Assembly: GCA_000004985.1 (NCBI GenBank) | Contig: GG738896.1 | Source of the DNA: Naegleria gruberi | Lineage: Eukaryota | Direction: 5' to 3' (one strand) | DNA length: 64,000 nucleotides | In this document: positions 8,801 to 48,993 of the stretch, piece by piece | Position numbering within the stretch: position 1 is the first letter of the stretch | How the letters are laid out: each line of letters starts with the position of its first letter | Made by a program: the position numbers and the translations under genes | The notes under the pieces: model-generated | The model's database searches: none | Seen by the model: the letters and a program-made list of their open reading frames with translations, nothing else | What the model was told of the DNA's origin: nothing

Positions 8801-10263
8801 GGTATTGGCATATTTATCTTGAACTAGACCGATAGCATACTCTGGAAGTGAAAACCAATAGCCAAATTTACCACCAATAGCTCTGTTTCCCTCAAAATAA
8901 TTCATTGCCTTTTGTTGTGTAAGAATTGTGTAAAATTAAGGAATTACTTACATTGGTAATCCAGAAAACTGATACATCGTTATCTGTAGGTATTATTTGA
9001 AGCGGGTCTGAATCGATAATTGGTAAAACTTTAGCTCCCAAATTATTTTTGAACAAGTTGTACATTTCTGATCCATTTTCCAAGAAAAAGGCATGTCCAT
9101 TGATATTATAACAAACATTATTCTCAATTTGAATATAATTTGAATCATGAACAGTGATACATCTTTGATAAGAATTATAAATACTGTTATCCTTTAGAAT
9201 AAAAGGTTTGACAGTAGAGTTCAATGCCTTATCTCCTAATAAGTGAAAGTGAATTGAATAACGTCCCATTAAACCCTTTAAAATATAATTGTTAATCATT
9301 ATAATTCAATAGAATAAACTCACCTTTTGTCCCATTCGTCTCAATTCCACACCAACCATTTCGAATTGTTCAACAAGACGAATGATAACATGACCACCAA
9401 ATGAAGAAGAAGCACTGGATACATCCCCTTCAAACACAATATTCCTATTGAGTTTGGCAACTTCTCCTCTTGTAACTCCACTTGCATAGTGAGTGAACAA
9501 GAGTGTTTGGTTGACTATAAAAGTAGTCGAGTTAATAATTGAAACAATGGTTCTTTCCTCACTCTGATCAGGAAATGGAACACCAACTCGCCAAGTTGGA
9601 AGGGTGACTTTAGTTTTATCTAGAAGTTCTCCGTAATCTGTCGAGGTCAATAAGATGGAATCGCCAACTTTCCAATTGGTTGGAGAACGAGTCTTGATAA
9701 TGGTTGTTCCTTTGACGGCACTTTCAGCCAATTCTACCCAAGATAAACCATCAACAGAACCAACGATTTGAATGAAAGAACCTGAACAAGATGTAAAATT
9801 CATTCAAATGTCAAAACTTACCTGACATGGCAGCAAGACCTTTGGCTCCACCACTACTTCCATCAAATGGATCAATTCCAATAATATTGGAAGCAGTTCT
9901 ATTTCCATAGAAAGTAACCACAATTTTACCAGTAATTGGACAACTAGAGCTGCCAGCAATCAATTTACCTCCCTTGTCAACTCTAATAAATTGGAGAGTC
10001 AAATTTAAATTGACATTGTTAAATATCAAGCTTGCATTTTGTTGGACAATAATTCCATACAACAAAACACCAGGTGACTTATCCAAAAGCGTATTTTGTG
10101 AAATGGTAATGGTAGAATTGACCTTGTTCCAATCAGCAATCGAAGAAAACATTTTCAAGCCAGATTGTTGATGTGGACATTGACCAACTACCATCTTTAC
10201 ATTTCCAGCTACTAAAAACAAGATAGTTATTAGTAGAATAGTTTGTAAGAAACGGTTTAACAT
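5828..10263 (-). CDS. secreted G8-domain / right-handed beta-helix (PbH1) protein with C-terminal EGF-like repeats (CEMIP/TMEM2-like); four exons
   Basis: Exons on the minus strand are approximately 10263..9822, 9781..9324, 9275..8952 and 8908..5828. They are joined by GTAAGT/GTGAGT...AG mini-introns of 40, 48 and 43 nt at approximately 9782..9821, 9276..9323 and 8909..8951. Exon lengths sum to a multiple of 3, about 1434 aa. There is an N-terminal signal peptide (MLNRFLQTILLITILFLVAG). The G8-like signature is WKVGDSILLTSTDYGELL...RGEVAKLNRNIVFEG. PbH1-like repeats appear as SIYNSYQRCITVHDSNYIQIENNVCYNINGHAFFLENGS. The C terminus holds about 6 tenascin-type EGF repeats (CNGNGNCTAPFTCQCNQGWIGETC...). 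Confidence 0.7.
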
Positions 10264-11933: not shown

Positions 11934-14900
11934 ATGCAACAACCACATTCCAGAACGTTTCTCTATTTGCTTTTCATATTAATATTGCAAGTGTGTTTGC
12001 AAGTTCAACAACATTCCACCACACTAGCTGTCAACACATGTTGGGGATATTCAGCTACTGACATTTCGAATGTATGTGGAGGTCATGGTTTCTGTCAAAG
12101 TACTGATTCTTGCTATTGTGTAGATTCAACGAGTAGTAATACTTTATATTCATCAGGAGGATCCAACACTCTCTATCAGGAAACTTCTCTATGGTCCACC
12201 AACTCTCAATTCGAATTGAAACAACAAAATGATGGTAATTTGGTAGTTTATACGAGAAGTGGAGGAGTGGTTTTCTCTTTCTCAACTTGGCAACAAACAC
12301 CTGATACTCCCTATACTTTAGTTCTTTCTGGGGATGGTACATTACAAGTTAAAAGTGGTGGAGGTGCCATTATAAAGACAATTTCAGGAGCATGTGGTGG
12401 TACAGCCCCTTACAAATTACTAGTCCAAAATGATGGTAATATAGTGCTCTATGGAGCACAGAGAGAAGTTTGTTTTGCTTCTGGAACATCTCAAGGTGGT
12501 TATTCACTTACGTATAATTGGGGTGGAGACCAGTGCAATCAATATCTTTGTTACGGGTTGACTGGTGCTAATGCATGTAATGGTCACGGCTCTTGTAATT
12601 CGAGGGATAGTTGCTCATGTAATAATGGATACAGTGGAAGTCAATGTACTGAGTACTACTGCAATAGTGTACTGTATTCTCAGATTGGTACAGTTTGTAA
12701 TGGTCATGGAACGTGTACGGCTCCAAATACTTGTCAATGTACTGGTGGATATAATGGTACTTTTTGTGCTTCATATCAATGTTATGGATTTGAATCGAAT
12801 GACCCAGGAGCATGTAGTGGATTTGGAACTTGTTCTTCACCAAATACTTGTACTAATTGTCTTGCTGGAAGATATGGATCTGAGTGCCAATATTATGATT
12901 GCGGTGGAATTAGATTTGATCAACCAAACGTATGCTCTGGAAGAGGAGAATGTGGTTCTAAAAACAATTGTACTTGTTCAGAGCCATACTTTGGAGATAA
13001 TTGTGAAAATTTTATGTGTAATGGAATCATTAACAATTCTACGCTCGTTTGTTCAGGCCATGGAGCATGTTCTTCACCAGAGAATTGTACTTGCCAAGAG
13101 GGTTACTTTGGAGAGAATTGTGAATTGTTTGAATGCAGTGGAATTTTGAAAAATGAATCAAATGTGTGCACTGGATTTGGTAATTGCACAGCATTTGATA
13201 GTTGTCAATGTGATGAGCAACATTATGGTAAATTCTGTGAAATTAATATTTGCAATGGAGTACTCTCAAACAGTCCAAGTGTTTGCTCTTCACATGGTCA
13301 ATGTAACTCATTCAATAATTGTACTTGTGATGAAAATTATAGTGGACAAAATTGTGAAATTTATGATTGTTATGGAGCTTCTAAAAATTCCTCCTCCGTA
13401 TGCTCTGGAAGAGGAACATGTTCAGCATATAACAATTGTAGTTGCTCTGCACCTTTTTATGGATCTGATTGTGGATTATATAATTGTTTTGGAGTAGAGC
13501 ACTTGAACGACAGTTCATGTTCATCCCATGGTTCATGTGATTCACCAAACAATTGTACATGTAAACCTGGATATTATGGAAACCGTTGTGAGTTTCATAA
13601 TTGTTATGGCACTCTCTTCAACAGCTCAGGTGTTTGTTCCACTCATGGACAATGCTTATCACCAAATAATTGTTTCTGTGAAGCAGGATTCTATGGACCA
13701 GAATGTGCAGAATATGATTGTTTTGGAGTTCATAAGAATTCTTCAAATGTTTGTTTCCAACATGGAGCTTGTTTGAGTCCAAATAATTGTTCTTGCCAGG
13801 AAGGATACTTTTCGTTTGATTGTTCTAATCATAGATGTTATGGATATTTATTTAATGATACTACAAATGTTTGTAATGGCCATGGCTCATGTCCTTATCC
13901 AAATAATTGTACATGTCAATCAGGATATTATGGATATCAGTGTGAATCTCATGAATGCTTTGGAAAGTTATTCAATATCTCGACTGTTTGTTCCACCCAT
14001 GGACAATGTTTGTCACCAAATAATTGTTTCTGTGAAGCAGGATATTATGGACCAGAATGTGCAGAATATGATTGTTTTGGAGTTCATAAGAATTCTTCAA
14101 ATGTATGCTTCCAGCACGGTACATGTTTGAGTCCTAACAATTGCTCATGCCAAGAAGGATACTACGGATTCGATTGTTCTAATCACAACTGTTTTGGAAT
14201 TCTGTTTAATGATACCATGAATGTTTGTAATGGTCATGGTTCTTGTTTTGTTCCAGATAATTGTACATGTCATCCAGGATATTATGGAAAAACCTGTGAA
14301 ATGCACAATTGTTTCAATATTTTGTTCAATGACTCAAATGTTTGCTCAGGAAAAGGTCAATGCTTATCACCAAATAACTGTTCCTGTGTTGATGGTTTTA
14401 CCAATAAGGATTGCTCAGTGAATATCAGTCCTTTCCAAATCAACCTCACAAAATACGAAGAAGTTGTTTATTTGGAGTTTGATAACAAGACTATTAGTGT
14501 TGAAATTCAATTGACAGATCGAGTATTGAGCCAAAGTCCAAATATTTCCTACACTTGGTCTTGTGCTCAGTGCGATGGACAAAATGTGGTGTATTATGTT
14601 GATTCTAATCGTTTGTTCATCAACTCTACATTAACTGATGTTACTCAAGCAGGCAATTACACTTTCATTGCAAACGCATCCATTGCTAATATTCAACCAT
14701 TCCAAAGTAGAAAATCCAACATTGAGCAATTCAAATTGGTTGTAAAGTATGATTTGAATCAGCCAACTTTGGGCTCCTTTGGCTTACCTTCTGTACTTGT
14801 ATCTAATACTCAAGATCAAACTATTTCAACTGTTATTAATAGTATCACTCTTAATCAAACAACTGTAAGATACTTTTTGGGTTGTGGTAGAAATTGCTCA

Positions 14901-17900
14901 ACTTTGGTTTCGTATTTATACGAAGTGAAGGCTGGAGTGTTTTATTACAAAAAATCAGGTTCTGTAATGGCACAATTTGAGAGCTCTAATCTATTGACCT
15001 TTTCTCCATCTGTTCCTATTCAAGCAACCATTCCATCTGATTATTTGAATGAAACAGTCTCATTCACATTTACAGTTATCAATAACAAGCAACAGAATAT
15101 CAGTTCAACTGTACAAATTCAAATTGTCTCCTCTGCAAGCCCACCAACACGACTGACAAACATAGTGGATGTTGTACCAACATATGGTATTTCAATGAGT
15201 GAAAAGTTTACAATTAAGGTTTCGGAGTGGGTTGCATCACCTGAACTGTTACCACTAAAATACGCTTTTGGATATTTTGATAAATCCAAGGCAGAAGCTG
15301 TGAGATTGACCGAATATGGTCTTAATACTACGTTTTCATCTTATCTACCTTATATTAGATCATCATCTAGCTCTAAGGCAAGAAGCATCTTGGAAGCTAC
15401 AGAGACAATTGCTTTGGTTGTCTTTGTACAAGACTCTCTTGGAAATGTCGAAACTGAAACGGCAGCTAATGTAACAGTATCTCCATTTAATGGAACTCAA
15501 GAGCAATATATTGAGGTTGTTAAATCTTTGAGCGGAGAATCACTATTGGTTGCCTCAGTGGATCAAACATTCACAAGCTTAGCATCATCATCATTGGTTT
15601 CAGCCCTCATTTCTAATATTGAAATTGATCCAAAGAATCCTTCTTCTTCTCTTTCCAGCTTGGAAACGCTCACGTCCAACAATGAAACACTCACAGCCAA
15701 TACAGTTACTCAGGTCATCAACAAATTGGATTCATTTATCTCCAATCTAACAGAGCTCTATTTAAGTGAACTTGCTCTATATGGCTATGTGAAATCCGGG
15801 ATGTCCAGTACAGACATTAGCAAAACAGTTCAAATTATTTCGAACTGTTTCTCTACTTCATATGATGCCGAAAAAACCAAATCAACAGCAAGTCTCGTCA
15901 CAGGTCTGATTTATTATGGAACTATTCCTTCTGTTGTAGACACAACATCCACAGAATTACCAACAACCTCTTACAAATCAACTTCTATTAACATTACTGT
16001 TTCTAGTTTCAACATGCCAACACCGAGTACGAATCTACAATCAGTCTCAGATACTGAAAGCAAGGTAGCAATGAATTTGACATCTATTTTGTCCAAATAT
16101 GGTGCCTATTCGACAACATGTGGTGCAACAATGATAATTTATTCAAAGAACACTAATTATGATTCCTCTGTTAGTAACATGACTATCAGTTCCTCTGTTA
16201 CTGACTTTAAATTCATGAGAAAACTGGATATTTTAGTATTGAAAAATTTGGATTCACCGCTCATACTTTCCTTCAATGCAGCCACAATCCCAAGCTCAGT
16301 GATCGCCAACTCCACAGTTACCAACAGTACGTATCATTGTAAGTATTGGGATGAGAGTCTTAAATTGTGGAGCAGCAATGGATGTTTATTGAATAGAGTT
16401 TCATCAAATTCAATTGAATGCGCTTGCTCTCATACAACTATGTTTACAACTTTCCTTGAATCCAAGACCACAGCACTTACTGTTCAACTCAAGGATCAGG
16501 TTTCGTCTTTATACTATGCCCAAATATCATTCGGTATTATTTACTTGATTGCCGCCAGTGCTATTTTGGTTGGATTGATTGTTTTGAGAAAATCGCAACC
16601 TGTTAGCTCTAGATTACTGACTCCATATGTTGGTTTGATTGCCTTAATTGTGGAATGTACATTGATTTACATAGTACAAAGATCTGTTCTCGTTGATCAA
16701 TTGAACTCTGCCAATACTCAAATGTGGGAAAATGGAGATACTGCTGCCAACATTATTGCAAACATTGTAATGATTATTGTAAACACTCTCAATTTAACTG
16801 CCATTTTCTGTTACGTCATGCAAGTTTTCAGATTCCAATTCATGAAATTGCTTTACAAGAAACTTTCTGATAATAGAACTCAAGCTCAAAGTGCAACAGT
16901 TTTGAAAGTATTGAAGTATACCACTTCTCAAATATTATTTTATTCATTGATTGGAATTTTTACTGCCCTAAATATTGCCTATTGGGTTATTTGGGTCATT
17001 CTGAGAAGAACTGGAGTTCTCACATCAACACAGTACACCTATGTTGTATCCCTTTCTTATACGGTTTGCATTTTGGCATTTGGTTTGATAATTACTGCTG
17101 TTGCAATCCTTGACATGATTCTCTCCTCAAAGAAGGAAGTTGAGCAAAAGAAAAATAGAAGAAAAGCTATTAACTTTTCACAACCAACCAGCAACTTTAG
17201 TCTTGATAATGCTGAAAATGTACATGAAAAGAAGAAAATTAATAGGAATGTATTCTTGAATGCTTTCAATTGGTTTACATCAATGGATGGACCACTCTAT
17301 TTCAGAATGGAAATGTTCATTTATATCGTGTCTTTCATTTTGCTAATATTGAATCAAGTTATTGGATTGAGTAGCTTAGCATACAGATTTGAGAGTTTGA
17401 CAATGTTTAAACTTGCTTTGACTTTTGATTCCATTTCCTTCATCTTTGAGGTACTCTATGTGGTCTCATATATTTTAGTATTTGGTGGTTATGCACTCAT
17501 TGTCGCAATCATTTACAAGGTTAGACAACGTAGAACAAGAAAGGAAGAACAAAAGAAACAAAATGAGGAAATTATGAATCAAGAACTTTACAATACTTTG
17601 GAATCTGAAGAAGGTTATGAACTCTTTGCCAACTTTTGCGAAAAAGAATTCAGTTCAGAAAATCTATTCCTCTTCTCTGATATCAAAGCAAGTCCAGATG
17701 TGGCCTCTGGTGAAAATCTAGGAGGATTACTCTTCTTTGCTGAGAGAATTTATGAAAAGTACATCAAGACAGGTGCAGAAATGGAAGTTAACATTCCATC
17801 AAAGAGTAGAACTGCTTTTGTCCAACTCTATGAAAAATGTAAGAAAGTTGAAACAAACTCTTCATTGGAATTATTAGATTCTAATTCTCTAGCTAAATCT

Positions 17901-18077
17901 GGAATTGAAACCAATATTGTAAAGGATTGTTTCGATTTAATGATGAGACAAGTAGTAATGAATTTAGGAGATACCTTTTCTAGATTTGTTTTCACACCAG
18001 AATATGTTAATTTCAAGGCGGTTAGAGACGTTCAAATGCAAATTATCGAGAAGGCCAATGTTGTCTATGATATTTAA
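11934..18077 (+). CDS. giant receptor: signal peptide, 2 bulb-type lectin motifs, ~20 EGF-like repeats, Ser/Thr-rich stalk, GPS motif, 7 TM helices, C-terminal RGS domain
   Basis: Single 2047-aa ORF with no introns. Lectin motifs QNDGNLVVY and QNDGNIVLY match QxDxNxVxY. There are about 20 Cys-rich 31-32-aa EGF units (C..G.CxSPNNCxCxxGYYGxxCE). The GPS motif is CKYWDESLKLWSSNGC...CACSHTTMFTTF. Seven hydrophobic segments follow. The RGS signature is EEGYELFANFCEKEFSSENLFLFSDIKA. Confidence 0.75.
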   Translation: MQQPHSRTFLYLLFILILQVCLQVQQHSTTLAVNTCWGYSATDISNVCGGHGFCQSTDSCYCVDSTSSNTLYSSGGSNTLYQETSLWSTNSQFELKQQNDGNLVVYTRSGGVVFSFSTWQQTPDTPYTLVLSGDGTLQVKSGGGAIIKTISGACGGTAPYKLLVQNDGNIVLYGAQREVCFASGTSQGGYSLTYNWGGDQCNQYLCYGLTGANACNGHGSCNSRDSCSCNNGYSGSQCTEYYCNSVLYSQIGTVCNGHGTCTAPNTCQCTGGYNGTFCASYQCYGFESNDPGACSGFGTCSSPNTCTNCLAGRYGSECQYYDCGGIRFDQPNVCSGRGECGSKNNCTCSEPYFGDNCENFMCNGIINNSTLVCSGHGACSSPENCTCQEGYFGENCELFECSGILKNESNVCTGFGNCTAFDSCQCDEQHYGKFCEINICNGVLSNSPSVCSSHGQCNSFNNCTCDENYSGQNCEIYDCYGASKNSSSVCSGRGTCSAYNNCSCSAPFYGSDCGLYNCFGVEHLNDSSCSSHGSCDSPNNCTCKPGYYGNRCEFHNCYGTLFNSSGVCSTHGQCLSPNNCFCEAGFYGPECAEYDCFGVHKNSSNVCFQHGACLSPNNCSCQEGYFSFDCSNHRCYGYLFNDTTNVCNGHGSCPYPNNCTCQSGYYGYQCESHECFGKLFNISTVCSTHGQCLSPNNCFCEAGYYGPECAEYDCFGVHKNSSNVCFQHGTCLSPNNCSCQEGYYGFDCSNHNCFGILFNDTMNVCNGHGSCFVPDNCTCHPGYYGKTCEMHNCFNILFNDSNVCSGKGQCLSPNNCSCVDGFTNKDCSVNISPFQINLTKYEEVVYLEFDNKTISVEIQLTDRVLSQSPNISYTWSCAQCDGQNVVYYVDSNRLFINSTLTDVTQAGNYTFIANASIANIQPFQSRKSNIEQFKLVVKYDLNQPTLGSFGLPSVLVSNTQDQTISTVINSITLNQTTVRYFLGCGRNCSTLVSYLYEVKAGVFYYKKSGSVMAQFESSNLLTFSPSVPIQATIPSDYLNETVSFTFTVINNKQQNISSTVQIQIVSSASPPTRLTNIVDVVPTYGISMSEKFTIKVSEWVASPELLPLKYAFGYFDKSKAEAVRLTEYGLNTTFSSYLPYIRSSSSSKARSILEATETIALVVFVQDSLGNVETETAANVTVSPFNGTQEQYIEVVKSLSGESLLVASVDQTFTSLASSSLVSALISNIEIDPKNPSSSLSSLETLTSNNETLTANTVTQVINKLDSFISNLTELYLSELALYGYVKSGMSSTDISKTVQIISNCFSTSYDAEKTKSTASLVTGLIYYGTIPSVVDTTSTELPTTSYKSTSINITVSSFNMPTPSTNLQSVSDTESKVAMNLTSILSKYGAYSTTCGATMIIYSKNTNYDSSVSNMTISSSVTDFKFMRKLDILVLKNLDSPLILSFNAATIPSSVIANSTVTNSTYHCKYWDESLKLWSSNGCLLNRVSSNSIECACSHTTMFTTFLESKTTALTVQLKDQVSSLYYAQISFGIIYLIAASAILVGLIVLRKSQPVSSRLLTPYVGLIALIVECTLIYIVQRSVLVDQLNSANTQMWENGDTAANIIANIVMIIVNTLNLTAIFCYVMQVFRFQFMKLLYKKLSDNRTQAQSATVLKVLKYTTSQILFYSLIGIFTALNIAYWVIWVILRRTGVLTSTQYTYVVSLSYTVCILAFGLIITAVAILDMILSSKKEVEQKKNRRKAINFSQPTSNFSLDNAENVHEKKKINRNVFLNAFNWFTSMDGPLYFRMEMFIYIVSFILLILNQVIGLSSLAYRFESLTMFKLALTFDSISFIFEVLYVVSYILVFGGYALIVAIIYKVRQRRTRKEEQKKQNEEIMNQELYNTLESEEGYELFANFCEKEFSSENLFLFSDIKASPDVASGENLGGLLFFAERIYEKYIKTGAEMEVNIPSKSRTAFVQLYEKCKKVETNSSLELLDSNSLAKSGIETNIVKDCFDLMMRQVVMNLGDTFSRFVFTPEYVNFKAVRDVQMQIIEKANVVYDI
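16338..16456 (+). other. GPS (GPCR proteolysis site) motif inside the giant receptor
   Basis: C-x2-W-x6-W-x4-C-x11-C-x-C-x-H-T-T-x-F (CKYWDESLKLWSSNGCLLNRVSSNSIECACSHTTMFTTF), immediately before the first TM helix. Confidence 0.6.
17590..18060 (+). other. RGS (regulator of G-protein signalling) domain at the C terminus of the 7TM receptor
   Basis: LYNTLESEEGYELFANFCEKEFSSENLFLFSDIKA ... FVQLYEKCKK ... matches the RGS-box hallmark (F..F...EFS.ENL.FW). Confidence 0.55.
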
Positions 18078-19025: not shown

Positions 19026-20039
19026 ATGTCGCAACAAGCAACAATTGATTCATCATCATCGCCAGCAAACATGTATTTTCCGGTGCAAACAAAAATTTCA
19101 TGCCTCTTTGAAATTGAATTTTTAGAGAAGGAGAAGAAAGTTCTTGCTGTCAATAGATTATATAAGAAGGTTGTTAATTTACCAACCAATTCTGATGATA
19201 TCCGAGTGAATCCGACCATAAAAATTGATGGCACTTGTTGTCTTGTTCGTCAAGAGAAATTATTTAAACGTTATGATAGAAAATTGAATGCTTCGGGATC
19301 GAAGAAGAATAAGCAATTTCAAAAAGAAATTTCTCAAGGTACTGCCGATACTAATATTTTACAATTTGATATTTCAAAGGATTTTAAGGAGGGACCAAAA
19401 GGATGGATACCTTGTGATAGTATTGCTCATTTATTTACTGAGGAGAATAATTCAAATGTGGTTTCGTCTCAACATTTAGTGGGATGGATTCCTGTGGATT
19501 CTAATGATGCTGCAGATAAATGGCATTCTTCTGCGATAGTTTCGATTAATAATGAGCCACATGCCATAATGTTAATTCCCTATTTTGACCAAAATGATGA
19601 ACAAGCCAAGTTTTCAGTTGAATTTAGAAAGTTATCAAGTTTAGAAAATCAAACATTGGAATTAATTGGATCAAAAATTAATGGTAACGTTTATAACTTT
19701 CCTGCAAATGAAAAACAACACTTTTTAGTTCCACATGGATGGGCTTCCTATTCTTGGAAAGCAAGTAATGCATTTTTGGAGAATGTTAAAGAGCTCACCG
19801 TGGAAAAGCTTAAATCTTGGTTCGAAGATGAATCCAATATCATGAGTAAAAGTGAAGGTATTGTATTTCACATAATGTACAAAACAGAGGAAGGTAAGGA
19901 TAAGGAAATGCTGATCAAAATACACAGACACCACCTTAATTTGGATTGGCCTTTGAAGGGCTCTGCCATTCCACAATTTCAATATCAGTTGCAATGGATA
20001 GAAGAAGTTTTGAGACTCAAGAGTGAAAATAAACTCTAA
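19026..20039 (+). CDS. RLIG1 (C12orf29)-type ATP-dependent RNA ligase homolog
   Basis: 337-aa ORF. It carries the KxDG nucleotidyltransferase motif KIDGTCCLV and further blocks GWIPCDSI, VGWIPVD, KWHSS, QTLELIGSKINGNVY, HFLVPHGW, SWFEDE, EGIVFHI and LIKIHRHHLNLDWP. These match my recollection of human C12orf29, which has EKVDGTCCYV, GWVPVE, LEQTLELIGTNINGNPYG, EGIVWHC and LIKVHRHHLGLCWP. This comparison is from memory, not a search. Confidence 0.7.
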   Translation: MSQQATIDSSSSPANMYFPVQTKISCLFEIEFLEKEKKVLAVNRLYKKVVNLPTNSDDIRVNPTIKIDGTCCLVRQEKLFKRYDRKLNASGSKKNKQFQKEISQGTADTNILQFDISKDFKEGPKGWIPCDSIAHLFTEENNSNVVSSQHLVGWIPVDSNDAADKWHSSAIVSINNEPHAIMLIPYFDQNDEQAKFSVEFRKLSSLENQTLELIGSKINGNVYNFPANEKQHFLVPHGWASYSWKASNAFLENVKELTVEKLKSWFEDESNIMSKSEGIVFHIMYKTEEGKDKEMLIKIHRHHLNLDWPLKGSAIPQFQYQLQWIEEVLRLKSENKL

Positions 20040-21844: not shown

Positions 21845-22103
21845 ATGAATTTTTTTTGCTTGAGATTTGCTGAATTTTCAGAAAGCATATTGTTTAGCAG
21901 TTTGGTAATTATTTAATAACTCAAAGTTTTTTCCTACGACAAAGTTTTGTGACTGGAATCCAAGAATACTGTATTAGAAAGTTGACTGTGGATTCAATCC
22001 CATCTGATGTGTTCCAATATTGATTGACCTGATGGTGACTTAATTTTTGAGCTTTTAATTCATGTCTCTTGCAAAAATTTTAATATTTTTAAATTAAAAA
22101 AAA

Positions 22104-24778
22104 ATGAAGAGAAACATATTACCAAATGTACTTCACTTTCTTCAAAAACAATCAGAGGGCAAGATGTTGTTAACAAATAAGTCCAACAACAAAACTTTTA
22201 ATTCAAATACTTCTTCTCTCAATTTCAGTAATTGGACCTCAGAACAAGTAGCAAAATGTCTTTCCAAACCTAAGGAAGAAGGTGGTATTGGTTTGTCTGA
22301 GAACCAATATGCTCCACTCATTAAGGCAAATATTGACGGACTTGTTCTTGATATTATTTACTCATCAGCTGATGCTAACAAAAGACAAAACATTCTTCCA
22401 AAATTTGGTGTAGAAATTACACCAGAAATTAAACAAGCCTTACCCATTATCATGAATTGGTTGAAATCTTACTCTCAAGAATCCTACTTACAAAGGATCA
22501 ACAAGGCAGAAAATATCTTTGGAGTTCTGAATATTTCTTTCGAATGGCAAGGCAATGGTTTAGAGAAAATACGACCTCCTTTTGTTGGCAGATATGAAGC
22601 AATTTTAGAAACCATAGAAACAATTTTCAAGCTTGGAACATATGAAAAACCCAAAATGTCACTTATTTCAACCACCATGGGAATGGGTAAATCTTCTTTT
22701 CTTTTTGAATGCATTAGTCAATTTCTAACTAGTAAGTTTTATATTTATTTTTCAACTTCTAATCTTTCCAGACCATAAGTTAATTAATAGCTTCTTATTT
22801 CAAACACCAATTAATGCAAATATTAATACTAGTAATCTGAAAAGGCAATTAGAGGTGTTTAATTCACCTGAATGCTACTTACGTGCTGATTTTGTTAACA
22901 AATTGAACAGGGCTTTTAAAATTAGACACATAATTCCTTTTAAGTGCAATACAAAACGAGTGGATGTGAATGGTTGTAAGTATCGAATTTTTTACTATTA
23001 GAAATATTATTTCAAAAGTGTTTCGTGAAATAGTGTTGGGGCAATTAGAATGCCTTTTTTTAAATGTTGCTATTAGAATTAACAAAAAAAAAGATTTAGT
23101 AATTTTCAACACGATGGATGAATTATTGGGTAATAATACACACAAATCTACTGCAAACTTAATACAGAAATTCTCGGAATTGGTGCAACTTAATGCACCT
23201 TTTGTAGCAGATATATTTGATATTCCCTATAAATATCAAACTCATCCATTACCTTTGATAATATTGGTAGATTCATTCCATAATATCAATATGGACACAA
23301 GTTCAAGAGGTTCTTTATACAAACTTGGCCAACAATTTTTTACAACTAATTTAGAAGTTTTAAACTTGGATAAGAATATATCTTTGTCTCTCATAATTAC
23401 AGCAAACTCATTACCAAATCAGTTCGTCTCTAAAGATAATACAATATTTTCTCTTAAAGTTATTAATTTGGAGTTATTATTTGGGGTAAATATATTTCAA
23501 CAAATTACAAACGATTTATTTTTGGCAAGCCTTAATAGAAAAATATTTGAGGAATTTGGAAGTTATTATTTTGCTGAAAACAATAATTACCTTTCTCCAT
23601 ATCTCTCAAAAATCATTATATCAATTTTAATCATGTGTAGTGGTAATGGAAGGGCAATAGAAATAATGTATAGAAAATGTGGTCAAGATATTAAAAATTT
23701 AGTTACAAAGGAATTGGCAATGGATATAACAACAAGGTTTGCTATTACCTATAATGCAGAGTACTTATTGATTTTACAAAAATGCAAAGAAGTGATTGTA
23801 GAATTTGTGACACATTTTGCAGAAAAAACCTTAGAACATTGTAATGATCGCTCCAAAAAGTATTTCAAGGTATTCAGAATAATGGGTATTACAACATCAC
23901 CAAATCATTTATTATTTCCCTATCACTTTAATTCAAACCAGAACTTGACTGTTGAAGAATTACAAAGACTTGGATTGCTAGTTAAAATTGGTGTTGATGA
24001 AAAGAAAAGCAATGCAAGTTATGTGGGATCTTTTATGATGCTTGATACTTTAGATTCAAACAAAGAGATAATTGAACTGAAGAATTTAACAGAAGTATCA
24101 AATAGTGATTATTATTATTTACCAATATATTACAATGATCTTTTAACACCTTTTGCAGATCTTGGGAAATTTAAAAACCAAGGTGACCGATTTGAAAAAA
24201 CAGTAGCTTCTTCAATATGGGCTAGGTATTACTTGGGCTGTATGGAATCTAACATACCAATTGGGTCAAGCATTCCAATTACAAAGATTCTCCCTTCTAA
24301 CATGATACCTGATAATTGCTTACAAGGTTCGGTTTCTCTTAAAGGAGTGATAAAATTACACAAACCATTTACTGTGGAGTCAGATATTAACGGTCTTCCT
24401 TTTGATCGAGTGATCTTAAATTCTGACCAAACCGTATTCTCTGACATTATTTTACCTTTAACCGTTAATGGAGAACAAAGATTCATTGGTATTCAAGTTT
24501 GTTATGTAAAATCAAAAAGAACACAACCTAAGCCCTTAAAAATTGTAAGCAACATGAAACAAGTGTTGAATTATTCTTCTTTTTCGTACCTATTTATTTC
24601 CACTTACTTACCTCCAAGTATTCTTTTATTAGGTCAAGAAAAGGTAAAAAGGGTTAAGGATGGTCAATTTCTTTTTCAAAATAGACAAAAGTTTCAAACT
24701 GCCCTACCAGACAAACTTGTATCCTATTGGTGGAGCCAATTGATGTTCAAGTATTATCCTGAATTTTATGAAAATTAG
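22104..24778 (+). CDS. SAM-like domain + P-loop NTPase (STAND/NACHT-like) protein; three exons
   Basis: Exons lie at approximately 22104..22731, 22772..22975 and 23019..24778. The two GTAAGT...AG mini-introns are 40 nt (22732..22771) and 43 nt (22976..23018). Exon lengths sum to 2592 nt = 864 codons, so the frame closes. The N-terminal SAM-like region is NWTSEQVAKCLSKPKEEGGIGLSENQYAPLIKANIDGLVL. Walker A is STTMGMGKSS, the Walker-B-like motif is LIILVDSFHN and the sensor-like motif is SLIITANS. Confidence 0.5.
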
Positions 24779-26067: not shown

Positions 26068-26455
26068 TGATTATTGTGAATGACAACAAACCCTTGTTAG
26101 CTTCAGAACCAAAAAAACCACAACCTCCTCTGCAATTACTCATTTTTTTTAATTTTTGATTATATTTAAAACTCTTTGATGGCGGGAAACTGATATTGTA
26201 ATCATGGTATGTAAATCCTGTTAATGGAGGAATATTTAAAATATTACAATAACAAAAGCTGATAATGATTCATAATGAAACTGACTTATTTAGAGTTTGA
26301 TGATACATTGTAAAGTGCATCAAATCTTTTAGTATGAAAAGAATTTAGTGAGCCAGTTCTTTCACTACACTTGCAAAAATTTTATATTCTTGGAAAGTAA
26401 GATGACAGTCCTGATATGAAATTCAACAAGCTCAAAAAAAACTCGACTATTTAAT

Positions 26456-27729
26456 TTAGAAAGTATCAATATCAACAGCCTTCAAAGTTTGACATTCTTC
26501 TCTCAAATCACTGAACAAGACAGTACTCAAGTAACGTTCACCAAAGCTAGGAATGATGGCAACAATCAATTTACCTTCATTTTCTGGTCGTTTAGCAACT
26601 TCCAATGCAGCATAAATAGCAGCACCAGAACTGATACCAACAAACAAACCTTCCTTCAATGCAGCTTCCTTAGCAAATTTAACAGCATTGTCAGAGTGAA
26701 CCTTAAAGATTTCATCAATGAGGGATGTATCCAAAGTGTTTGGAATGAATCCAGCACCAATACCTTGAATCTTGTGTGGGCTTGGGGTATTTCCACTAAT
26801 GACAGCACTTTCTTCTGGTTCAAGAACAATACCTCTAACCTTTGCACGACCTTCCTTTTCAGTTTGTTCATTGAAATACTTCATACATCCTGAAAAGGTA
26901 CCACCTGTACCGGCTCCACTGACGAAAATATCAATTTTGCCATCAGTATCTCTGTAAATTTCTGGACCAGTTGTATTGTAGTGAATCAATGGATTAGCTG
27001 GATTATCAAATTGACCCAAAATGAATGAATTTTCAGTTCTTTGGGCAAGCTTTTCAGCAACAGCAACAGCTCCCTTCATACCCTTGGCAGCAGGAGTCAA
27101 AATCAACTTGGCACCAAGTGATCTCAAGACAACTCTTCTTTCAATACTCATAGAATCAGGCATGATAATAGTACACTATTTTTACACAGCATTTCACATG
27201 TGGTTAACAATTTGTTCAAACACAAACAGCTAATGTTAGTGTGATTAATTCTAAACACTACACATACCTCATATCCCTTGCTAGCAGCAATAAAAGCAAT
27301 ACCAATACCAGTATTACCAGATGTTGGTTCAATCAAGACAGTTTTTCCAGGTTGAATTTTTCCTTCCTTTTCGGCGACTTCAATCATTGACAAGGCAATT
27401 CTGTCTGTTAATAATAATATAAAGGATTCCAATTTGTACAACAGCAGTACAAGGATGAACATTGAATCAATCCATAGATCAATTTTTAATTCATCATCAT
27501 CATCAAATTGAAATAGGAAATTAATTCCATCATCATGATCATCAATTGAAAACTATTAAAAACAATATGATCATCATCAGAATAACATACCCTTGACACT
27601 GCTCATTGGTTCCAAAGATTCCAACTTTAATGCAATCTTGGCTACAGCACCATGTTCCGCAGTGAGTTTATTCAAATATAAGAGTGGTGTGTTACCAATC
27701 AATTCAGTGATGGAATTAGCAATCTTCAT
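26456..27729 (-). CDS. cysteine synthase (O-acetylserine sulfhydrylase, PLP-dependent); three exons
   Basis: Exon 1 (~27729..27591) encodes [22 protein letters not shown]...[12 protein letters not shown]. Exon 2 (~27404..27267) encodes [46 protein letters not shown]. Exon 3 (~27174..26456) encodes [28 protein letters not shown]...GTGGT...[10 protein letters not shown]. The introns start GTATGT and are about 186 and 92 nt, AT-rich. The PLP-lysine motif SVKDR is split across intron 1. Confidence 0.8.
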
Positions 27730-29597: not shown

Positions 29598-31124
29598 TTA
29601 ATGATAGGTGGATTGTTGAGTGTTGACAATGTTTCTAACACATTGTTCGATACTATCGACGAATATATTCAAATCTCTTTCATGAATATTGAAGGGTGGA
29701 GTGATGAGAACAACTCTATCATTTTGTCTGGAATAATCTACGAGAATGTGATAACAGGTTGCCAATTCTTCATGGATTCTCTTGGCACTTACATGTTCAT
29801 CGAAAATCAATCCAAGCATGAAACCCATTCCACTAACTTCCTTGAAATGTGGAATGCCCTGAAGTCTTTGAACGAGTGTGGATTTGAGTTGAGTTCCCAT
29901 CACTGCAGCTCTCTGTACAAGATTTTCATCGAACATAATCTCTAAATTCTTCATTACAATTTCACAACATACTGGATGTCCAGAGAAGGTAAATTCATGA
30001 AGGAATGGATGTTCAATATTTGCCTTGAAGAGAACTTGACATAGGTGTCTTGCTAGCATCATTCCTCCCAATGGAAGATAGCCACTAGTGACTCCCTTTC
30101 CAAAAACAACAATATCTGGCTCAATTCCATAATGAGAGAGACCAAACCATTTACCAGTTTTACCAAATCCTGTCATGACTTCATCTGCAATGAGTAGAAC
30201 ACCATACTTGTCACAAATTCTTCTGGCTAATGGGAAGAAATCCTTATGTGGTTCAAGAGCTCCATTCACTCCTTGAATTGGTTCTGCAATGAATGCTGCA
30301 ATATTTTCTGGACCTTCAAGTTTGATGAGATTTTCCAATTGTTCAGCAATGAAGAAACCATTATTTGCATGTTGAGTGTGTTTCTGGAAGGAATTAACAA
30401 TAAAATCATGAGGGAAATCAATACTCAAAAAGATGCTATCCTTTGAGAAACGATCGGTTGGGCCTTTGAGATTCTGATAACCATACTCATCCTTTCCAAC
30501 TTGCTCATTGAGTGAAGAGCTGACGAAAGTGGAGCCATGATAGCAATTTCTGAATGAGATAATCTTCTTCTTTGTTTGACTATTATTTAACAAGGACCAG
30601 TATCTCTCAGCAAGGTGGATTGAAGCTTCCACTGCCTCACTTCCACCAGATGTGAAATAAACCCTCTCCATGGACGGATACTCATGTTTGGTAATGGATA
30701 CTAACTTTTCAGCACACTTGATAGCACTTGAATGAGAATAATTGTAAATATTGGGAGCAAATTCCATTGTTTTCATTTGGTTGTAAGCAACTTGAGCCAT
30801 TTCTTCTCTACCATGACCAATATGACACGTGTGTAATCCACCAATCATGTCTAAATATTGAACATTGTTAACATCCCAATAGTAAGAGTCCTTTGCTTTT
30901 TGGAAGACGATTGAGTGGACACTACTTCCCAATTCATGATTAGAATGAATGAGAGAACGATTGTCACGGAAAACCCACTCCTCTCTGGATGGAGATTCTT
31001 CAGAACTGGATGGAAAGTTTGCAGTTGATTCCAAGAATGAAGAAGGAGCTGTTAAATCAGTGGAGAGTGGAGGTTTAAGTTGGTCCTGTATTGGATTTTG
31101 TTGATATAATTTGCTTTCGACCAT
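29598..31124 (-). CDS. class III PLP-dependent aminotransferase (BioA / omega-transaminase-like)
   Basis: 508-aa ORF with DEVMTGFGKTGKWFG, FGKGVTSGYLPLGG (PLP lysine), YHGSTF, TSGGSEAVE and FIAEPIQGVNG. Confidence 0.7.
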   Translation of the reverse strand: MVESKLYQQNPIQDQLKPPLSTDLTAPSSFLESTANFPSSSEESPSREEWVFRDNRSLIHSNHELGSSVHSIVFQKAKDSYYWDVNNVQYLDMIGGLHTCHIGHGREEMAQVAYNQMKTMEFAPNIYNYSHSSAIKCAEKLVSITKHEYPSMERVYFTSGGSEAVEASIHLAERYWSLLNNSQTKKKIISFRNCYHGSTFVSSSLNEQVGKDEYGYQNLKGPTDRFSKDSIFLSIDFPHDFIVNSFQKHTQHANNGFFIAEQLENLIKLEGPENIAAFIAEPIQGVNGALEPHKDFFPLARRICDKYGVLLIADEVMTGFGKTGKWFGLSHYGIEPDIVVFGKGVTSGYLPLGGMMLARHLCQVLFKANIEHPFLHEFTFSGHPVCCEIVMKNLEIMFDENLVQRAAVMGTQLKSTLVQRLQGIPHFKEVSGMGFMLGLIFDEHVSAKRIHEELATCYHILVDYSRQNDRVVLITPPFNIHERDLNIFVDSIEQCVRNIVNTQQSTYH

Positions 31125-47600: not shown

Positions 47601-48629
47601 TGAAGCATCAGCAATATATAATTTTTTTCCATAAATGGCTAAACTTGTAATTCCATGAAAAGTTGCATTTAATGCATTTCCTCCATCTCCACTAAATCCT
47701 GGAGTAATTCCTGCATTATTGGCAATAACAGTTCGTACACCATTTGAAAATTTAACAATTTGATCGTAAGTTGCTTCTGCCACATACAAATCTCCATTCG
47801 AATCAAATACGATTCCTTTAGGTCCAAAAGACGAAACATAGGTATAAACACTGCCATTATTTGCAATGTACTTGATTGCATTATTGTCAAAATCAGAGAA
47901 ATACATTTCACCACTCACAGGATTGAAGACAATCGCCCAAACTTCACCAACATTCGAATATAAAGCCAAAGATCCCTCAGCACTGTTTCCCTTCACACCA
48001 CTACCAACAATATTGTAAATGATTCCATTGACAACCTTTCTAATTCTATAATTGTAGGTATCACAAATAAAAACATCACCATTCGAAACTGGAACGACAC
48101 ATCTTGGTTGATTCAATGAAACAGATAATGGAGAAACACCAGAAGATGAAGAGTCGAATCCACCACCTGCGAATGTAACCATGTTGTAATTGTTGATGGT
48201 AGAATTAAAATAAACCTTTCGAATTCGAGCATATTCAGCAATATACAGTTCTCCATTCGAATTCAGAGCAACACTACTCGGTGTCAACAATGTATCATTA
48301 GCGAGAGTGAAATAACTGCTTTCTCCTGCTGCCAAAGTTGGTGATCCAGCAGCGAGATGTGAAAAACCATTCGAATCAACATATCTTACCTGATGATTGT
48401 ACATGTCAGAGAAATAGACATTCCCATTCAATGGTGAAACAGCAACGCCAAGTGGGAAAGTCATGCCAACTTGAGTGGCCTTGACTCCCTCTCCGTACAT
48501 TTCTCCCAACAGTGTGGTTAGTTTGAAATCGACAGGTTTAGTTTGAGAAAAACATCTGACTGTCCATGCAAAACAAGAAATCAACACAACAACCACAAAC
48601 AGATTTACAGGTTGTAAGGTTTTCATTTT
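44641..48629 (-). CDS. NHL-repeat beta-propeller(s) + EGF-like module + Ser/Thr stalk + single TM; one gene interrupted by a frameshift near 46390
   Basis: The upstream ORF (..48629 to 46383) has a signal peptide MKTLQPVNLFVVVVLISCFAWTVRC and many NHL units (GDLYICDSINHAIRKIDHETGIISTIAG...). The downstream ORF (46488 to 44641) continues the same repeat (NVIKKMDFESSIIYNIAGTG...), then has an EGF module CSGNGICQSFNNCACKVGYMGSDC, a TM helix LIGAIVGSIGGCCVLLSVLMIIIVVIALVL and a KRKR tail. The two ORFs overlap in different frames across an A4 run (GACAAAATG). A single added A would restore one continuous repeat: FIAKDKNVIKKMD. Confidence 0.55.
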
Positions 48630-48993
48630 TTTGGAATGATATGAGAATCTGAATAGATTCGTTATTGTCGTAATAAAAGATTTTTTTGGAATGATAGAGG
48701 TGATGATTGTTTCACTCGCCATTACCGGGAAAAAATATATTTAATCCCAAGGTTACACATTGTTTTACTTACAACCCTAAAATGAGAAATTATTGTCGTT
48801 TTCAATTCTTACTACCCTATCGTCAGTATGGTGAATTGAGCCAAATTGCTCAAGTATGGTAAATTGAGCCAAATTGCTCTTGGATTCGGCAGGTATTCTC
48901 CATTGTAAATTGATTCTGTTGGTAGAATCTCCACTTACAATAATTGCAATAATTGCGCTCATAATTATCAATCTCTTTAATCCATTCCAACAT

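What the first reader, a model, noticed from the sequence alone, without database searches (positions are those of the whole stretch)
22104..24778. SAM-like domain fused to a STAND/NACHT-like P-loop NTPase, reconstructed across two 40- and 43-nt introns
The two ORFs in the track (22104..22778 and 22970..24778) join in frame only if a hidden 204-nt middle exon is spliced with two GTAAGT...AG mini-introns. The result is an 863-aa protein. It has an N-terminal SAM-like helical bundle, Walker A GMGKSS, an hhhhD Walker-B-like LIILVDSF motif and a sensor-like SLIITANS motif. SAM + STAND ATPase combinations recur in innate-immunity and cell-death signalling across kingdoms (SAM-mediated oligomerisation of nucleotide-switch scaffolds). 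Finding one in this protist, with a large uncharacterised C-terminal region, makes it a candidate stress- or defence-sensor gene.
Basis: partly seen in the sequence, partly recalled or inferred. Interest (0 to 1): 0.5.

Follow-up and report, generated by a model that had tools for sequence, protein, structure and literature searches.

The report
Unannotated Naegleria NTPase–nuclease-fold fusion gene
The three-exon gene is real and encodes an 863-residue protein of a very rare protist family that joins a divergent P-loop NTPase to a restriction-endonuclease-like C-terminal domain; the proposed SAM and STAND/NACHT identities could not be confirmed.

Summary
Exons 22104-22731, 22772-22975 and 23019-24778 join in frame into 863 aa across 40- and 43-nt GTAAGT...AG introns. 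Two homologous genes on eukaryotic metagenome contigs (31-34% identical) have introns at the same two codon positions and phase, and their middle exon is conserved at protein level. The window is Naegleria gruberi, and the gene appears absent from its public protein set.

Walker A (K196), Walker B (D362) and the 'IITANS' strand are conserved family motifs. No Pfam, PADLOC, NCBIfam or PDB sequence search recognises SAM, NACHT, NB-ARC or any other family. A profile comparison with the STAND protein MalT aligns only the P-loop. The SAM-like N-terminus is absent from the homologues, and its model was too poor to test.

Best reading: an NTP-gated switch coupled to a nuclease-like module, possibly catalytically attenuated in N. 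gruberi. The family is tiny, 8 clusters among 1.84 billion representatives. Function is inferred, not shown.

The parts
22104..22731 (+). Exon 1 (aa 1-209 plus the first base of codon 210). It holds the N-terminal region, the pre-Walker-A helix and Walker A.
   Evidence: ATG after a run of A's, 260 bp from the divergent upstream ORF. Codon score +0.23 in frame. Residues from about 127 onward align to L001, L002 and L004.
22230..22472 (+). Its identity is unverified.
   Evidence: The sequence pattern W-T-S-E-Q-V ... Y ... N-I-D-G-L-V-L resembles SAM (my reading from memory, not a test). There is no Pfam or PDB hit. AF2 pLDDT is 37, with five helices predicted at 46-54, 66-74, 80-87, 91-94 and 107-123. 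The region is not shared by homologues.
22575..22628 (+). Conserved pre-Walker-A segment PPFVGRYEAILETIETIF (aa 158-175).
   Evidence: P, F and R are invariant in four full-length family members.
22671..22697 (+). Walker A / P-loop TTMGMGKSS (K196).
   Evidence: G-x-G-K-[ST] is invariant in all four full-length members. It aligns to the MalT P-loop SPAGYGKTT.
22732..22771 (+). Intron 1, 40 nt, GTAAGT...CAG, phase 1.
   Evidence: It carries an in-frame stop if retained (ORF1 ends at 22778). L001 (44 nt) and L002 (61 nt) have introns at the same codon position and phase.
22772..22975 (+). Exon 2, 204 nt (68 codons). It is part of the insertion between Walker A and Walker B.
   Evidence: It is open only in the proposed frame, where the codon score is positive. 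Its protein sequence is conserved in L001 and L002.
22976..23018 (+). Intron 2, 43 nt, GTAAGT...AAG, phase 1.
   Evidence: L001 (46 nt) and L002 (47 nt) have introns at the same position and phase. An alternative acceptor at 23033 cannot be excluded without RNA data.
23019..24778 (+). Exon 3, ending in the stop codon (aa 278-863).
   Evidence: This exon found 8 homologue clusters in the exhaustive phmmer search, best E = 2e-68. P0015 matched at 4e-138.
23252..23281 (+). Walker B strand PLIILVDSFH (D362). The second acidic residue is replaced by Ser.
   Evidence: hhhhVDSF[QH] in N. gruberi, L001 and L002; LVLGLDECQ (canonical D-E) in L004 at the aligned position.
23384..23428 (+). Sensor-1-like strand LSLIITANSLPNQFV (N407).
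   Evidence: Conserved as hII[AT]ANS[LM]P[NG]QF[VI]. L004 has WVVTGTIIPGEYV.
23636..23662 (+). Lid motif CSGNGRAIE (R489), a helix-turn-helix that follows the NTPase core.
   Evidence: G..RAIE is invariant in four full-length members; in the fragment P0012 it reads G..RLIE. P0008/L004 reads GLPRAIE and P0012 reads GIPRLIE. In the AF2 model, helix 193-205 and helix 210-232 (exon-3 numbering) flank the motif, with pLDDT 72-86.
23687..24106 (+). Helical bundle plus a probable winged-helix region (aa 501-640).
   Evidence: AF2 pLDDT is 70-88. The model shows helices followed by a beta-hairpin, 320-326/331-336 in exon-3 numbering. The N. gruberi paralogue fragment P0006 aligns here.
24107..24775 (+). 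C-terminal PD-(D/E)xK (restriction-endonuclease-like) fold domain, aa 641-863. Motif residues are E670, D753 and Q770-x-C772.

Best explanation
This is a real three-exon gene of Naegleria gruberi, apparently unannotated. Its 863-aa product belongs to a very small protist-only family.

Architecture, from N- to C-terminus:
- A lineage-variable N-terminus, helical and SAM-like by eye in N. gruberi.
- A divergent P-loop NTPase with a helical insertion of about 130 residues between Walker A (K196) and Walker B (D362).
- A lid helix pair carrying G-N-G-R-A-I-E, then a helical and winged-helix region.
- A C-terminal restriction-endonuclease-fold (PD-(D/E)xK) domain.

Proposed mechanism (inferred). 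Nucleotide binding at the P-loop sets the position of the lid and winged-helix region. That in turn controls access or oligomerisation of the C-terminal nuclease-like, DNA-binding module. This would make the protein an NTP-gated nucleic-acid effector or sensor, the design used by many genome-conflict (defence) ATPase-nuclease proteins.

The N. gruberi copy has Ser in place of the catalytic Walker-B Glu and Cys in place of the nuclease Lys. Distant relatives keep D-E and Q-x-K. The N. gruberi protein is therefore more likely a slow-hydrolysing, nucleotide-bound switch with weakened or altered nuclease chemistry than a vigorous enzyme.

Shown here: the gene structure, motif conservation, the fold of the C-terminal domain, and the rarity of the family. 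Inferred: the coupling between domains, a nucleic-acid target, and a conflict or defence role.
For: - Gene model: the spliced frame is open. Intron positions and phases are conserved, and the middle exon is conserved, in L001 and L002. The coding score is positive only in the proposed frame.
- Organism: the neighbouring ORF is 100% identical to an N. gruberi protein.
- Annotation gap: the best database match to exon 3 is 35% identical, and there is no self hit.
- NTPase: Walker A, Walker B, the sensor-like strand and the lid motif are invariant or conserved in four full-length models. The L004 Walker B is LDECQ.
- Nuclease motif: E670 is conserved in 7 of 8 sequences, D753 is invariant, and Q/K/H-x-K/C/H lies on the following strand.
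- Ordinary host gene: it is packed tightly between host genes, with no terminal repeats. Homologues sit among ordinary eukaryotic genes.
Against: - No sequence-based method links any part of the protein to a named family.
- The family's C-terminal profile does not align with E. coli Mrr.
- The NTPase core itself could not be modelled.
- The N. gruberi protein lacks two canonical catalytic residues, so the nuclease module may serve only for binding.
- There are no expression data and no functional or genomic-context evidence for defence. No synteny or defence-gene neighbours were found.
Confidence: 0.55

Rival explanations
1. One reading: a SAM-domain plus STAND/NACHT-type NTPase, meaning a NOD-like oligomerising innate-immunity or cell-death sensor in which SAM mediates assembly.
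For: - The motif order (FVGR helix, GxGK[ST], hhhhD, a polar residue at the end of the next strand, and a GxP-like lid motif: GLPRAIE in L004, GIPRLIE in P0012) is the order typical of STAND and ORC-like NTPases (family definition from my own knowledge of Leipe et al. 2004).
- A winged-helix-like hairpin follows the lid.
- Weak Foldseek alignments of 360-400 columns to the plant NLRs NRC3 and Sr35.
- nSTAND_NTPase5 at E=0.12 on the L001 P-loop.
- The N-terminus varies between homologues, as effector domains of STAND proteins do.
Against: - No significant HMM hit to NACHT, NB-ARC, AAA_16, nSTAND or SAM models for any of 5 family members.
- hhalign against MalT aligns the P-loop only, at 3% probability.
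- NLR Foldseek probabilities are 0.14-0.25, with E>0.1.
- There are no LRR, WD40 or TPR sensor repeats; the C-terminus is a globular nuclease fold.
- The Walker A to B spacing is 166 aa.
- The SAM-like region is unique to the N. gruberi copy, and its model is unusable.
Confidence: 0.2
2. An AAA+ ORC/Cdc6-like or 'archaeal ATPase' (Pfam ATPase_2 plus DUF234-type nuclease) descendant. This would be a DNA-associated ATPase-nuclease with a housekeeping or DNA-maintenance role rather than an immune one, possibly acquired from prokaryotes.
For: - The lid motif SGNGRAIE, with an invariant Arg, resembles the sensor-2 'GDxRxA[IL]' of clamp-loader and ORC/Cdc6 AAA+ proteins.
- 'DSFQ'/'DECQ' resembles the DEfQ Walker B of Pfam ATPase_2 proteins.
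- ATPase_2 proteins often carry a C-terminal PD-(D/E)xK-type DUF234 domain after a winged helix.
- These three resemblances are from memory and are leads only. The human ORC-Cdc6-Cdt1-MCM (OCCM) complex appears among weak Foldseek hits.
Against: - No Pfam hit to ATPase_2, DUF234, AAA_16, Cdc6 or ORC models.
- No relatives were found in 185,579 prokaryotic genomes with the conserved peptide patterns.
- Family members are all intron-bearing or of eukaryote-like composition.
- The family is far too rare and patchy for a core housekeeping function.
Confidence: 0.15
3. A decaying or non-functional locus, or a different isoform. The true transcript might skip the middle exon (a single 287-nt intron, 22732-23018), or the gene might be an untranscribed relic, which would explain its absence from the annotation.
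For: - Exon-skipping also keeps the frame.
- The gene is missing from the public protein set.
- Its codon score (0.08-0.23) is below the window's average of 0.33.
- Two catalytic positions are substituted.
- The related locus L003 is clearly degraded.
- The other N. gruberi family member is known only as a 123-aa fragment.
Against: - 863 codons are uninterrupted across three exons in 29% GC DNA.
- The middle exon is conserved at protein level, and both intron positions are conserved over about 33% protein identity.
- All structural motifs are intact.
Confidence: 0.1

Closest known systems
Prokaryotic ATPase-nuclease conflict proteins: Avs/antiviral STAND proteins with Mrr-/REase-type effector domains, and the Pfam ATPase_2 (PF01637) plus DUF234 (PF03008) proteins. 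The comparison rests on my own knowledge of these families.
   Same: One polypeptide that combines a P-loop NTPase, a lid and winged-helix region, and a PD-(D/E)xK-fold domain. There is also a variable extra domain at one end.
   Different: - No detectable sequence similarity to PADLOC or Pfam models.
- The nuclease-fold domain is C-terminal, and there is no repeat or sensor domain.
- There is a large insertion of about 130 aa between Walker A and Walker B.
- The genes are eukaryotic and contain introns.
- The catalytic Glu and Lys are substituted in the N. gruberi copy.
Mrr/MspJI/Type ISP (LlaBIII) nuclease domains, the D...(Q/E)xK variant of PD-(D/E)xK
   Different: The profile does not align with E. 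coli Mrr (probability 0.05%). N. gruberi has Q-x-C. There is no N-terminal modified-DNA reader domain.
Eukaryotic STAND/NLR proteins (NACHT, NB-ARC) and SAM-containing immune adaptors such as SARM1
   Same: The general logic of a nucleotide switch flanked by variable domains. The order of NTPase motifs, and the GxP-like lid motif followed by a winged-helix-like element, also match.
   Different: No HMM or profile support. There are no LRR, WD40 or TPR repeats. The Walker spacing is atypical. SAM identity is untested and is not conserved in the family.
CBASS/CRISPR ancillary effector nucleases Cap4, Can2/Card1 and VC1899
   Different: Their regulatory domain is SAVED or CARF and binds cyclic oligonucleotides. 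Here it is a P-loop NTPase.

Membership tests
STAND NTPases (NACHT / NB-ARC / AAA_16 / nSTAND) | Significant match to a family HMM or profile | tested here: not met
   Pfam scans of the N. gruberi protein and 4 homologues give nothing. The only trace is nSTAND_NTPase5 at E=0.12 (cut-off 34 bits, observed 12.7), covering only the P-loop of L001. PADLOC gives none. hhalign against E. coli MalT aligns 22 P-loop columns at 3% probability.
STAND NTPases (NACHT / NB-ARC / AAA_16 / nSTAND) | Walker A GxxGxGK[ST] and Walker B hhhhD[DE] | tested here: inconclusive
   Walker A is met (TTMGMGKSS, invariant GxGK[ST]). The Walker B Asp is present, but the following acid is Ser in N. gruberi, L001 and L002, and Glu only in L004. 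The A to B spacing is 166 aa, against roughly 60-80 in typical members by my own knowledge.
STAND NTPases (NACHT / NB-ARC / AAA_16 / nSTAND) | Helical lid (GxP motif) plus a winged-helix domain after the NTPase core | tested here: inconclusive
   The motif G-[NLI]-[GP]-R-[AL]-I-E lies between two confident helices, and a beta-hairpin lies downstream. Structural matches to NLRs reach only probability 0.14-0.25. The NTPase core was not modelled.
STAND NTPases (NACHT / NB-ARC / AAA_16 / nSTAND) | C-terminal repeat-type sensor domain (LRR, WD40, TPR and similar) | tested here: not met
   No repeat families were found by Pfam. The C-terminus folds as a single alpha/beta nuclease-like domain.
SAM domain | Match to the SAM_1, SAM_2 or related HMMs, or to solved SAM domains by sequence | tested here: not met
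   No Pfam hit at E<=10 for the full protein or for the isolated N-terminal region (aa 39-139). No SAM protein appears among PDB sequence hits.
SAM domain | Compact five-helix bundle fold | tested here: inconclusive
   The single-sequence AF2 model has pLDDT 37. Five helices are predicted in a SAM-like order, but the model is unusable for fold search. No homologue shares this region, so no MSA can be built.
PD-(D/E)xK (restriction-endonuclease-like) superfamily | alpha-beta-beta-beta-alpha-beta core fold | tested here: met
PD-(D/E)xK (restriction-endonuclease-like) superfamily | Catalytic signature E ... D ... (D/E/Q)xK on helix 1, strand 2 and strand 3 | tested here: inconclusive
   E670 is conserved in 7 of 8 sequences and D753 is invariant. 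The third motif is QxK in L004 and P0005/P0012, KxK in L002, QxH in P0002, HxC in L001 and QxC in N. gruberi. The Lys is therefore missing in this protein, although nearby K775 and K777 might substitute.
Mrr-family Type IV restriction nucleases | Sequence or profile similarity to the Mrr catalytic domain | tested here: not met
   hhalign of the 8-sequence C-terminal profile against E. coli K-12 Mrr gives probability 0.05% over 3 columns. No Mrr_cat Pfam hit.
PD-(D/E)xK (restriction-endonuclease-like) superfamily | Metal-dependent nuclease activity | not testable with these tools
   This requires purified protein and DNA/RNA cleavage assays.

The most novel reading that the evidence does not exclude
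A eukaryote-born (heterolobosean or allied protist) family of NTP-gated restriction-endonuclease-fold proteins. It would have no detectable sequence link to any described NTPase or nuclease family. It would work as a cell-autonomous anti-virus or anti-mobile-element sensor-effector, analogous to bacterial Avs and other ATPase-nuclease defence proteins but independently assembled, with lineage-swapped N-terminal adaptor domains (SAM-like in N. gruberi).
Probability: 0.2. Interest if true: 0.65.

Novelty: new variant of a known kind. Interest (0 to 1): 0.42.

Why it matters
Three reasons.

1. It adds a missing gene to the reference annotation of a model free-living amoeba. It also shows that 40-47-nt introns at conserved positions can hide multi-exon genes from annotation.

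2. It defines an orphan protein family, 8 clusters among 1.84 billion representatives. The family is built from two ancient catalytic folds, a P-loop NTPase and a PD-(D/E)xK nuclease, joined in one chain. That design is used by many prokaryotic immune proteins but is little documented in protists. If the protein proves to be an NTP-gated nuclease or DNA sensor, it gives an entry point into innate immunity or genome defence in Heterolobosea, which host giant viruses and many intracellular bacteria.

3. The substitutions at the Walker-B Glu and the nuclease Lys offer a natural series, from L004 to L002 to N. gruberi, for asking how such modules turn from enzymes into switches.

If it turns out to be a decaying lineage-specific gene, it matters little beyond annotation.

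Tried and rejected
- Word-indexed homology search with the spliced protein found nothing. Low-complexity words probably saturated the 8000-candidate limit, because the exhaustive phmmer search later found relatives.
The NTPase core, which spans all three exons, could therefore not be modelled.
- Exon 1 alone gave pLDDT 37. No fold search was run on it, because the result would be meaningless.
- The AFDB50 fold library was unavailable.
- Scans of metagenome contigs (two alignments), viral contigs and prokaryotic genome contigs for relatives all returned nothing.
- Exact look-ups of window ORFs and of the N. gruberi proteins P0006 and P0016 in the contig index failed. I could therefore not view the official gene calls at this locus, nor the paralogous N. 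gruberi locus.
- Profile against PDB sequences gave only a chance hit to ribosomal uL3 at E=0.55. The single-sequence hit to S100-A3 (E=0.35) was ignored.
- Synteny between the window and L001-L003: none.
- The transposon hypothesis found no support: there are no terminal inverted or flanking direct repeats around the gene, and the homologues lie among ordinary host genes.
- KAP-type and ABC/RecF-type NTPases were considered because of the long Walker A to B spacing. There is no transmembrane insertion, no ABC signature or Q-loop conservation, and no HMM hit, so neither was adopted. Neither is excluded.
- A literature search for Naegleria STAND, NLR or REase-fusion proteins found nothing relevant.
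Full report
**1. What is in the sequence**

The region 21.6-25.3 kb was read directly. Removing 22732..22771 (40 nt, GTAAGT...CAG) and 22976..23018 (43 nt, GTAAGT...AAG) yields a 2592-nt CDS. It encodes 863 aa plus a stop, and the middle exon is 204 nt.

The gene fills the space between two other ORFs. The upstream ORF is divergent and starts 260 bp away. The downstream F-box gene is convergent and ends 110 bp away. No terminal or flanking repeats suggest a mobile element.

**2. Is the splice model more than chance?**

GT..AG pairs alone are weak evidence in 29% GC DNA. 24 single-intron and 312 double-intron GT-AG models keep the frame open, 8 of them with consensus donors at both introns. Because the middle exon is 68 whole codons, skipping it also keeps the frame. 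Three independent observations favour the proposed model.

- Only 2.5% of out-of-frame 68-codon windows in the genes of this window are free of stops.
- A codon-usage log-odds score trained on 18 other ORFs of the window is positive only in the proposed frame. This holds for exon 1 (+0.23), exon 2 (+0.08) and exon 3 (+0.17). The other frames score -0.41 to -1.06.
- Comparative evidence is decisive. The exhaustive phmmer search with exon 3 found 8 protein clusters. Fetching their contigs gave homologous genes L001 and L002, on eukaryotic contigs of JGI metagenome 3300062347, and L004, from Logan run SRR31602988.
  - In L001 and L002 I found short GT-AG introns (44/46 nt and 61/47 nt) at exactly the same two codon positions and in the same phase (phase 1) as in the window gene.
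  - Between those introns lies a middle exon whose product aligns with ours. Compare NHKLINSFLFQ...FVNKLN...CNT (window gene) with EPDLVYQFIFP...FVNMLN...CDT (L001) and TPTILFKFIFE...FINNLY...CTS (L002).
  - Proteins only 31-34% identical that share two intron positions and a coding middle exon make the three-exon model very likely correct.

The acceptor of intron 2 (23018, against 23033) and possible exon-skipping isoforms still need RNA data. Other introns in the window are longer: 186 and 92 nt, with GTATGT donors, in the cysteine synthase gene.

**3. Organism and annotation status**

The aminotransferase ORF at 29598-31124 is 100% identical to a "predicted protein [Naegleria gruberi]" on a 331,721-bp scaffold. 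Yet neither the word-indexed search nor the exhaustive search returned anything closer than 35% identity to the target. The collection does hold N. gruberi proteins from NCBI, UniRef and EukProt. The gene therefore appears to be missing from the public N. gruberi protein set.

One N. gruberi paralogue is present only as a 123-aa fragment (EFC37240.1 / NAEGRDRAFT_75063, 32-34% identical) on another scaffold.

The family is tiny, with 8 clusters among 1.84 billion representatives. No relatives were found in viral, prokaryotic or further metagenome contigs. The three members whose genes I modelled (L001, L002, L004) contain spliceosomal-type introns.

**4. The NTPase**

Four full-length models (N. 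gruberi, L001, L002, L004) align throughout from residue about 150. The invariant or conserved elements are listed below.

| Element | N. gruberi | Other family members |
|---|---|---|
| Pre-Walker-A helix | APF[VL][GN]R, about 30 residues before the P-loop | conserved |
| Walker A | TTMGMGKSS (K196) | GxGK[ST] invariant |
| Walker B | hhhhVDSF (D362) | LVLGLDECQ in L004 |
| Sensor-1-like strand | LIITANSLPNQFV (N407) | WVVTGTIIPGEYV in L004 |
| Lid motif | C-S-G-N-G-R-A-I-E (R489) | GLPRAIE in L004, GIPRLIE in P0012 |

The canonical D-E in L004 confirms that 'LVDSF' is the Walker B strand.

Two peculiarities stand out. The Walker A to B spacing is 166 residues, and the insertion includes the middle exon. 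The N. gruberi, L001 and L002 proteins have Ser in place of the second acidic residue.

Classification failed at the sequence level.
- There is no Pfam, NCBIfam or PADLOC hit for the protein, its isolated domains, or any homologue.
- The sole trace is nSTAND_NTPase5 at E=0.12 over the P-loop of L001.
- PDB sequence and profile searches are empty.
- A profile of the NTPase module aligns only 22 P-loop columns with E. coli MalT, a bona fide STAND protein, at 3% probability.

The motif order and the lid motif fit the AAA+ ORC/Cdc6-STAND assemblage. That fit is my reading from established family descriptions, not a test. I leave the class open.

**5. Structure**

Exon 3 was modelled with a 12-sequence alignment, giving mean pLDDT 65 and pTM 0.66. 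Residues 1-155, the remainder of the NTPase core, were poor. Residues 156-575 were good, and the last about 190 residues reached about 90.

After the lid helices the model shows a helical bundle and a helix plus beta-hairpin that resembles a winged helix. The final domain has the order helix (GDRFEKTVASSIWARY), three strands, helix, strand.

- Foldseek gave no significant hit, but MspJI had the highest probabilities (0.77-0.80). Cdn1, Can2, HincII, PaqCI, MUS81 and BamHI also appear.
- The viral library gave VRR-NUC, Cas4 and PD-(D/E)XK entries at weak scores.

On the alignment of eight C-terminal domains, the helix Glu (E670) is present in 7 of 8 and the strand-2 Asp (D753) is invariant. Strand 3 carries Q-x-K in the distant members, but Q-x-C in N. 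gruberi and H-x-C in L001.

I conclude that the C-terminal domain has the restriction-endonuclease fold, with an Mrr/MspJI-like D...QxK ancestry. That assignment is from my own knowledge of those motifs. Its catalytic Lys is lost in the N. gruberi copy. Direct profile comparison with E. coli Mrr is negative, so I do not file it in the Mrr family.

**6. The N-terminus**

Residues 43-123 look SAM-like by eye (W-T-S-E-Q-V...Y...N-I-D-G-L-V-L). However:
- there is no Pfam or PDB hit;
- the single-sequence model has pLDDT 37;
- L001, L002 and L004 have short, unrelated N-termini.

SAM identity is thus untested. At best it is a lineage-specific addition.

**7. Mechanism and rivals**

The best-supported reading is an NTP-gated switch (P-loop, lid and winged helix) coupled to a nuclease-fold, nucleic-acid-binding module, with a swappable N-terminal adaptor. 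This is the logic of many conflict or defence ATPase-nuclease proteins.

In N. gruberi the S363 and C772 substitutions argue for slow hydrolysis and weakened or altered nuclease chemistry. The coupling, the substrate and the biological role are inferences. There is no context, expression or functional evidence.

The rivals are:
- a true SAM-STAND NOD-like sensor (confidence 0.2);
- an ORC/Cdc6- or ATPase_2/DUF234-like DNA-maintenance ATPase (0.15);
- a decaying or differently spliced locus (0.1).

The degraded paralogue L003 and the fragmentary N. gruberi paralogue show birth-and-death dynamics. That pattern is compatible with either a conflict gene family or a dispensable one.

**8. Verdict**

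The feature is a new variant of a known kind, an NTPase-nuclease fusion, carried by an orphan protist family and missing from the reference annotation. Interest is moderate (0.42). The architecture is unusual and the family is undescribed, but function is unknown and the key enzymatic residues are degenerate in this copy.

Noticed in passing
window 22104-24778: The gene has no identical or near-identical protein in the 15-billion-protein collection, although other N. gruberi proteins from this window are present (100% hit for the aminotransferase). It therefore seems to be missing from the public N. gruberi annotation.
   Followed up: partly
L003 4500-6800 (JGI 3300062347, contig Ga0606064_0024): A close paralogue of the L001 gene carries frameshifts around the CSGNGRAIE motif. 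It also has a deletion of about 50 aa in the helical and winged-helix region, so it is probably a pseudogene. An F-box gene lies next to it, as in the window, but there is no detectable synteny.
   Followed up: partly
L004 592-3069 (Logan SRR31602988): A distant family member with five short GT-AG introns (43-83 nt), none at the positions of the N. gruberi introns. It keeps the canonical Walker B D-E and the nuclease Q-x-K, but lacks the helix-1 Glu.
   Followed up: partly
window 29598-31124 (-): A class-III aminotransferase. After N. gruberi itself, an unnamed 80%-identical sequence and N. fowleri (55% identity), most of the nearest relatives are bacterial omega-transaminases (35-40% identity). 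This hints at an old bacterial origin.
   Followed up: no
window 22059-22082 and 26361-26384: The 24-nt motif TTCATGTCTCTTGCAAAAATTTTA lies 22-45 nt upstream of the target's ATG. It recurs at 83% identity in the intergenic region between the F-box gene and the cysteine synthase gene. This could be chance or a shared promoter element.
   Followed up: no
window 26456-27729 (-): A cysteine synthase (PALP) gene split by two introns of 186 nt (27590-27405) and 92 nt (27267-27176), both with GTATGT donors. They are longer than the target's introns and have a different donor hexamer.
   Followed up: partly
window 11934-18077 (+) and 5828-8905 (-): Very large ORFs with many teneurin/Delta-type EGF repeats. 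One of them (2047 aa) ends in an RGS domain, and the other carries CEMIP beta-helix pieces.
   Followed up: no
window 19026-20039 (+): An intronless ORF of the RLIG1 (C12orf29-type) RNA ligase family, Pfam E = 1.6e-42.
   Followed up: no
window 1231-3273 (-), 42446-44341 (-), 44641-48722 (-): Two DUF4116-repeat proteins. There is also an NHL/teneurin-like gene whose two long ORFs overlap (44641-46488 and 46383-48722), which suggests an intron or a frameshift.
   Followed up: no
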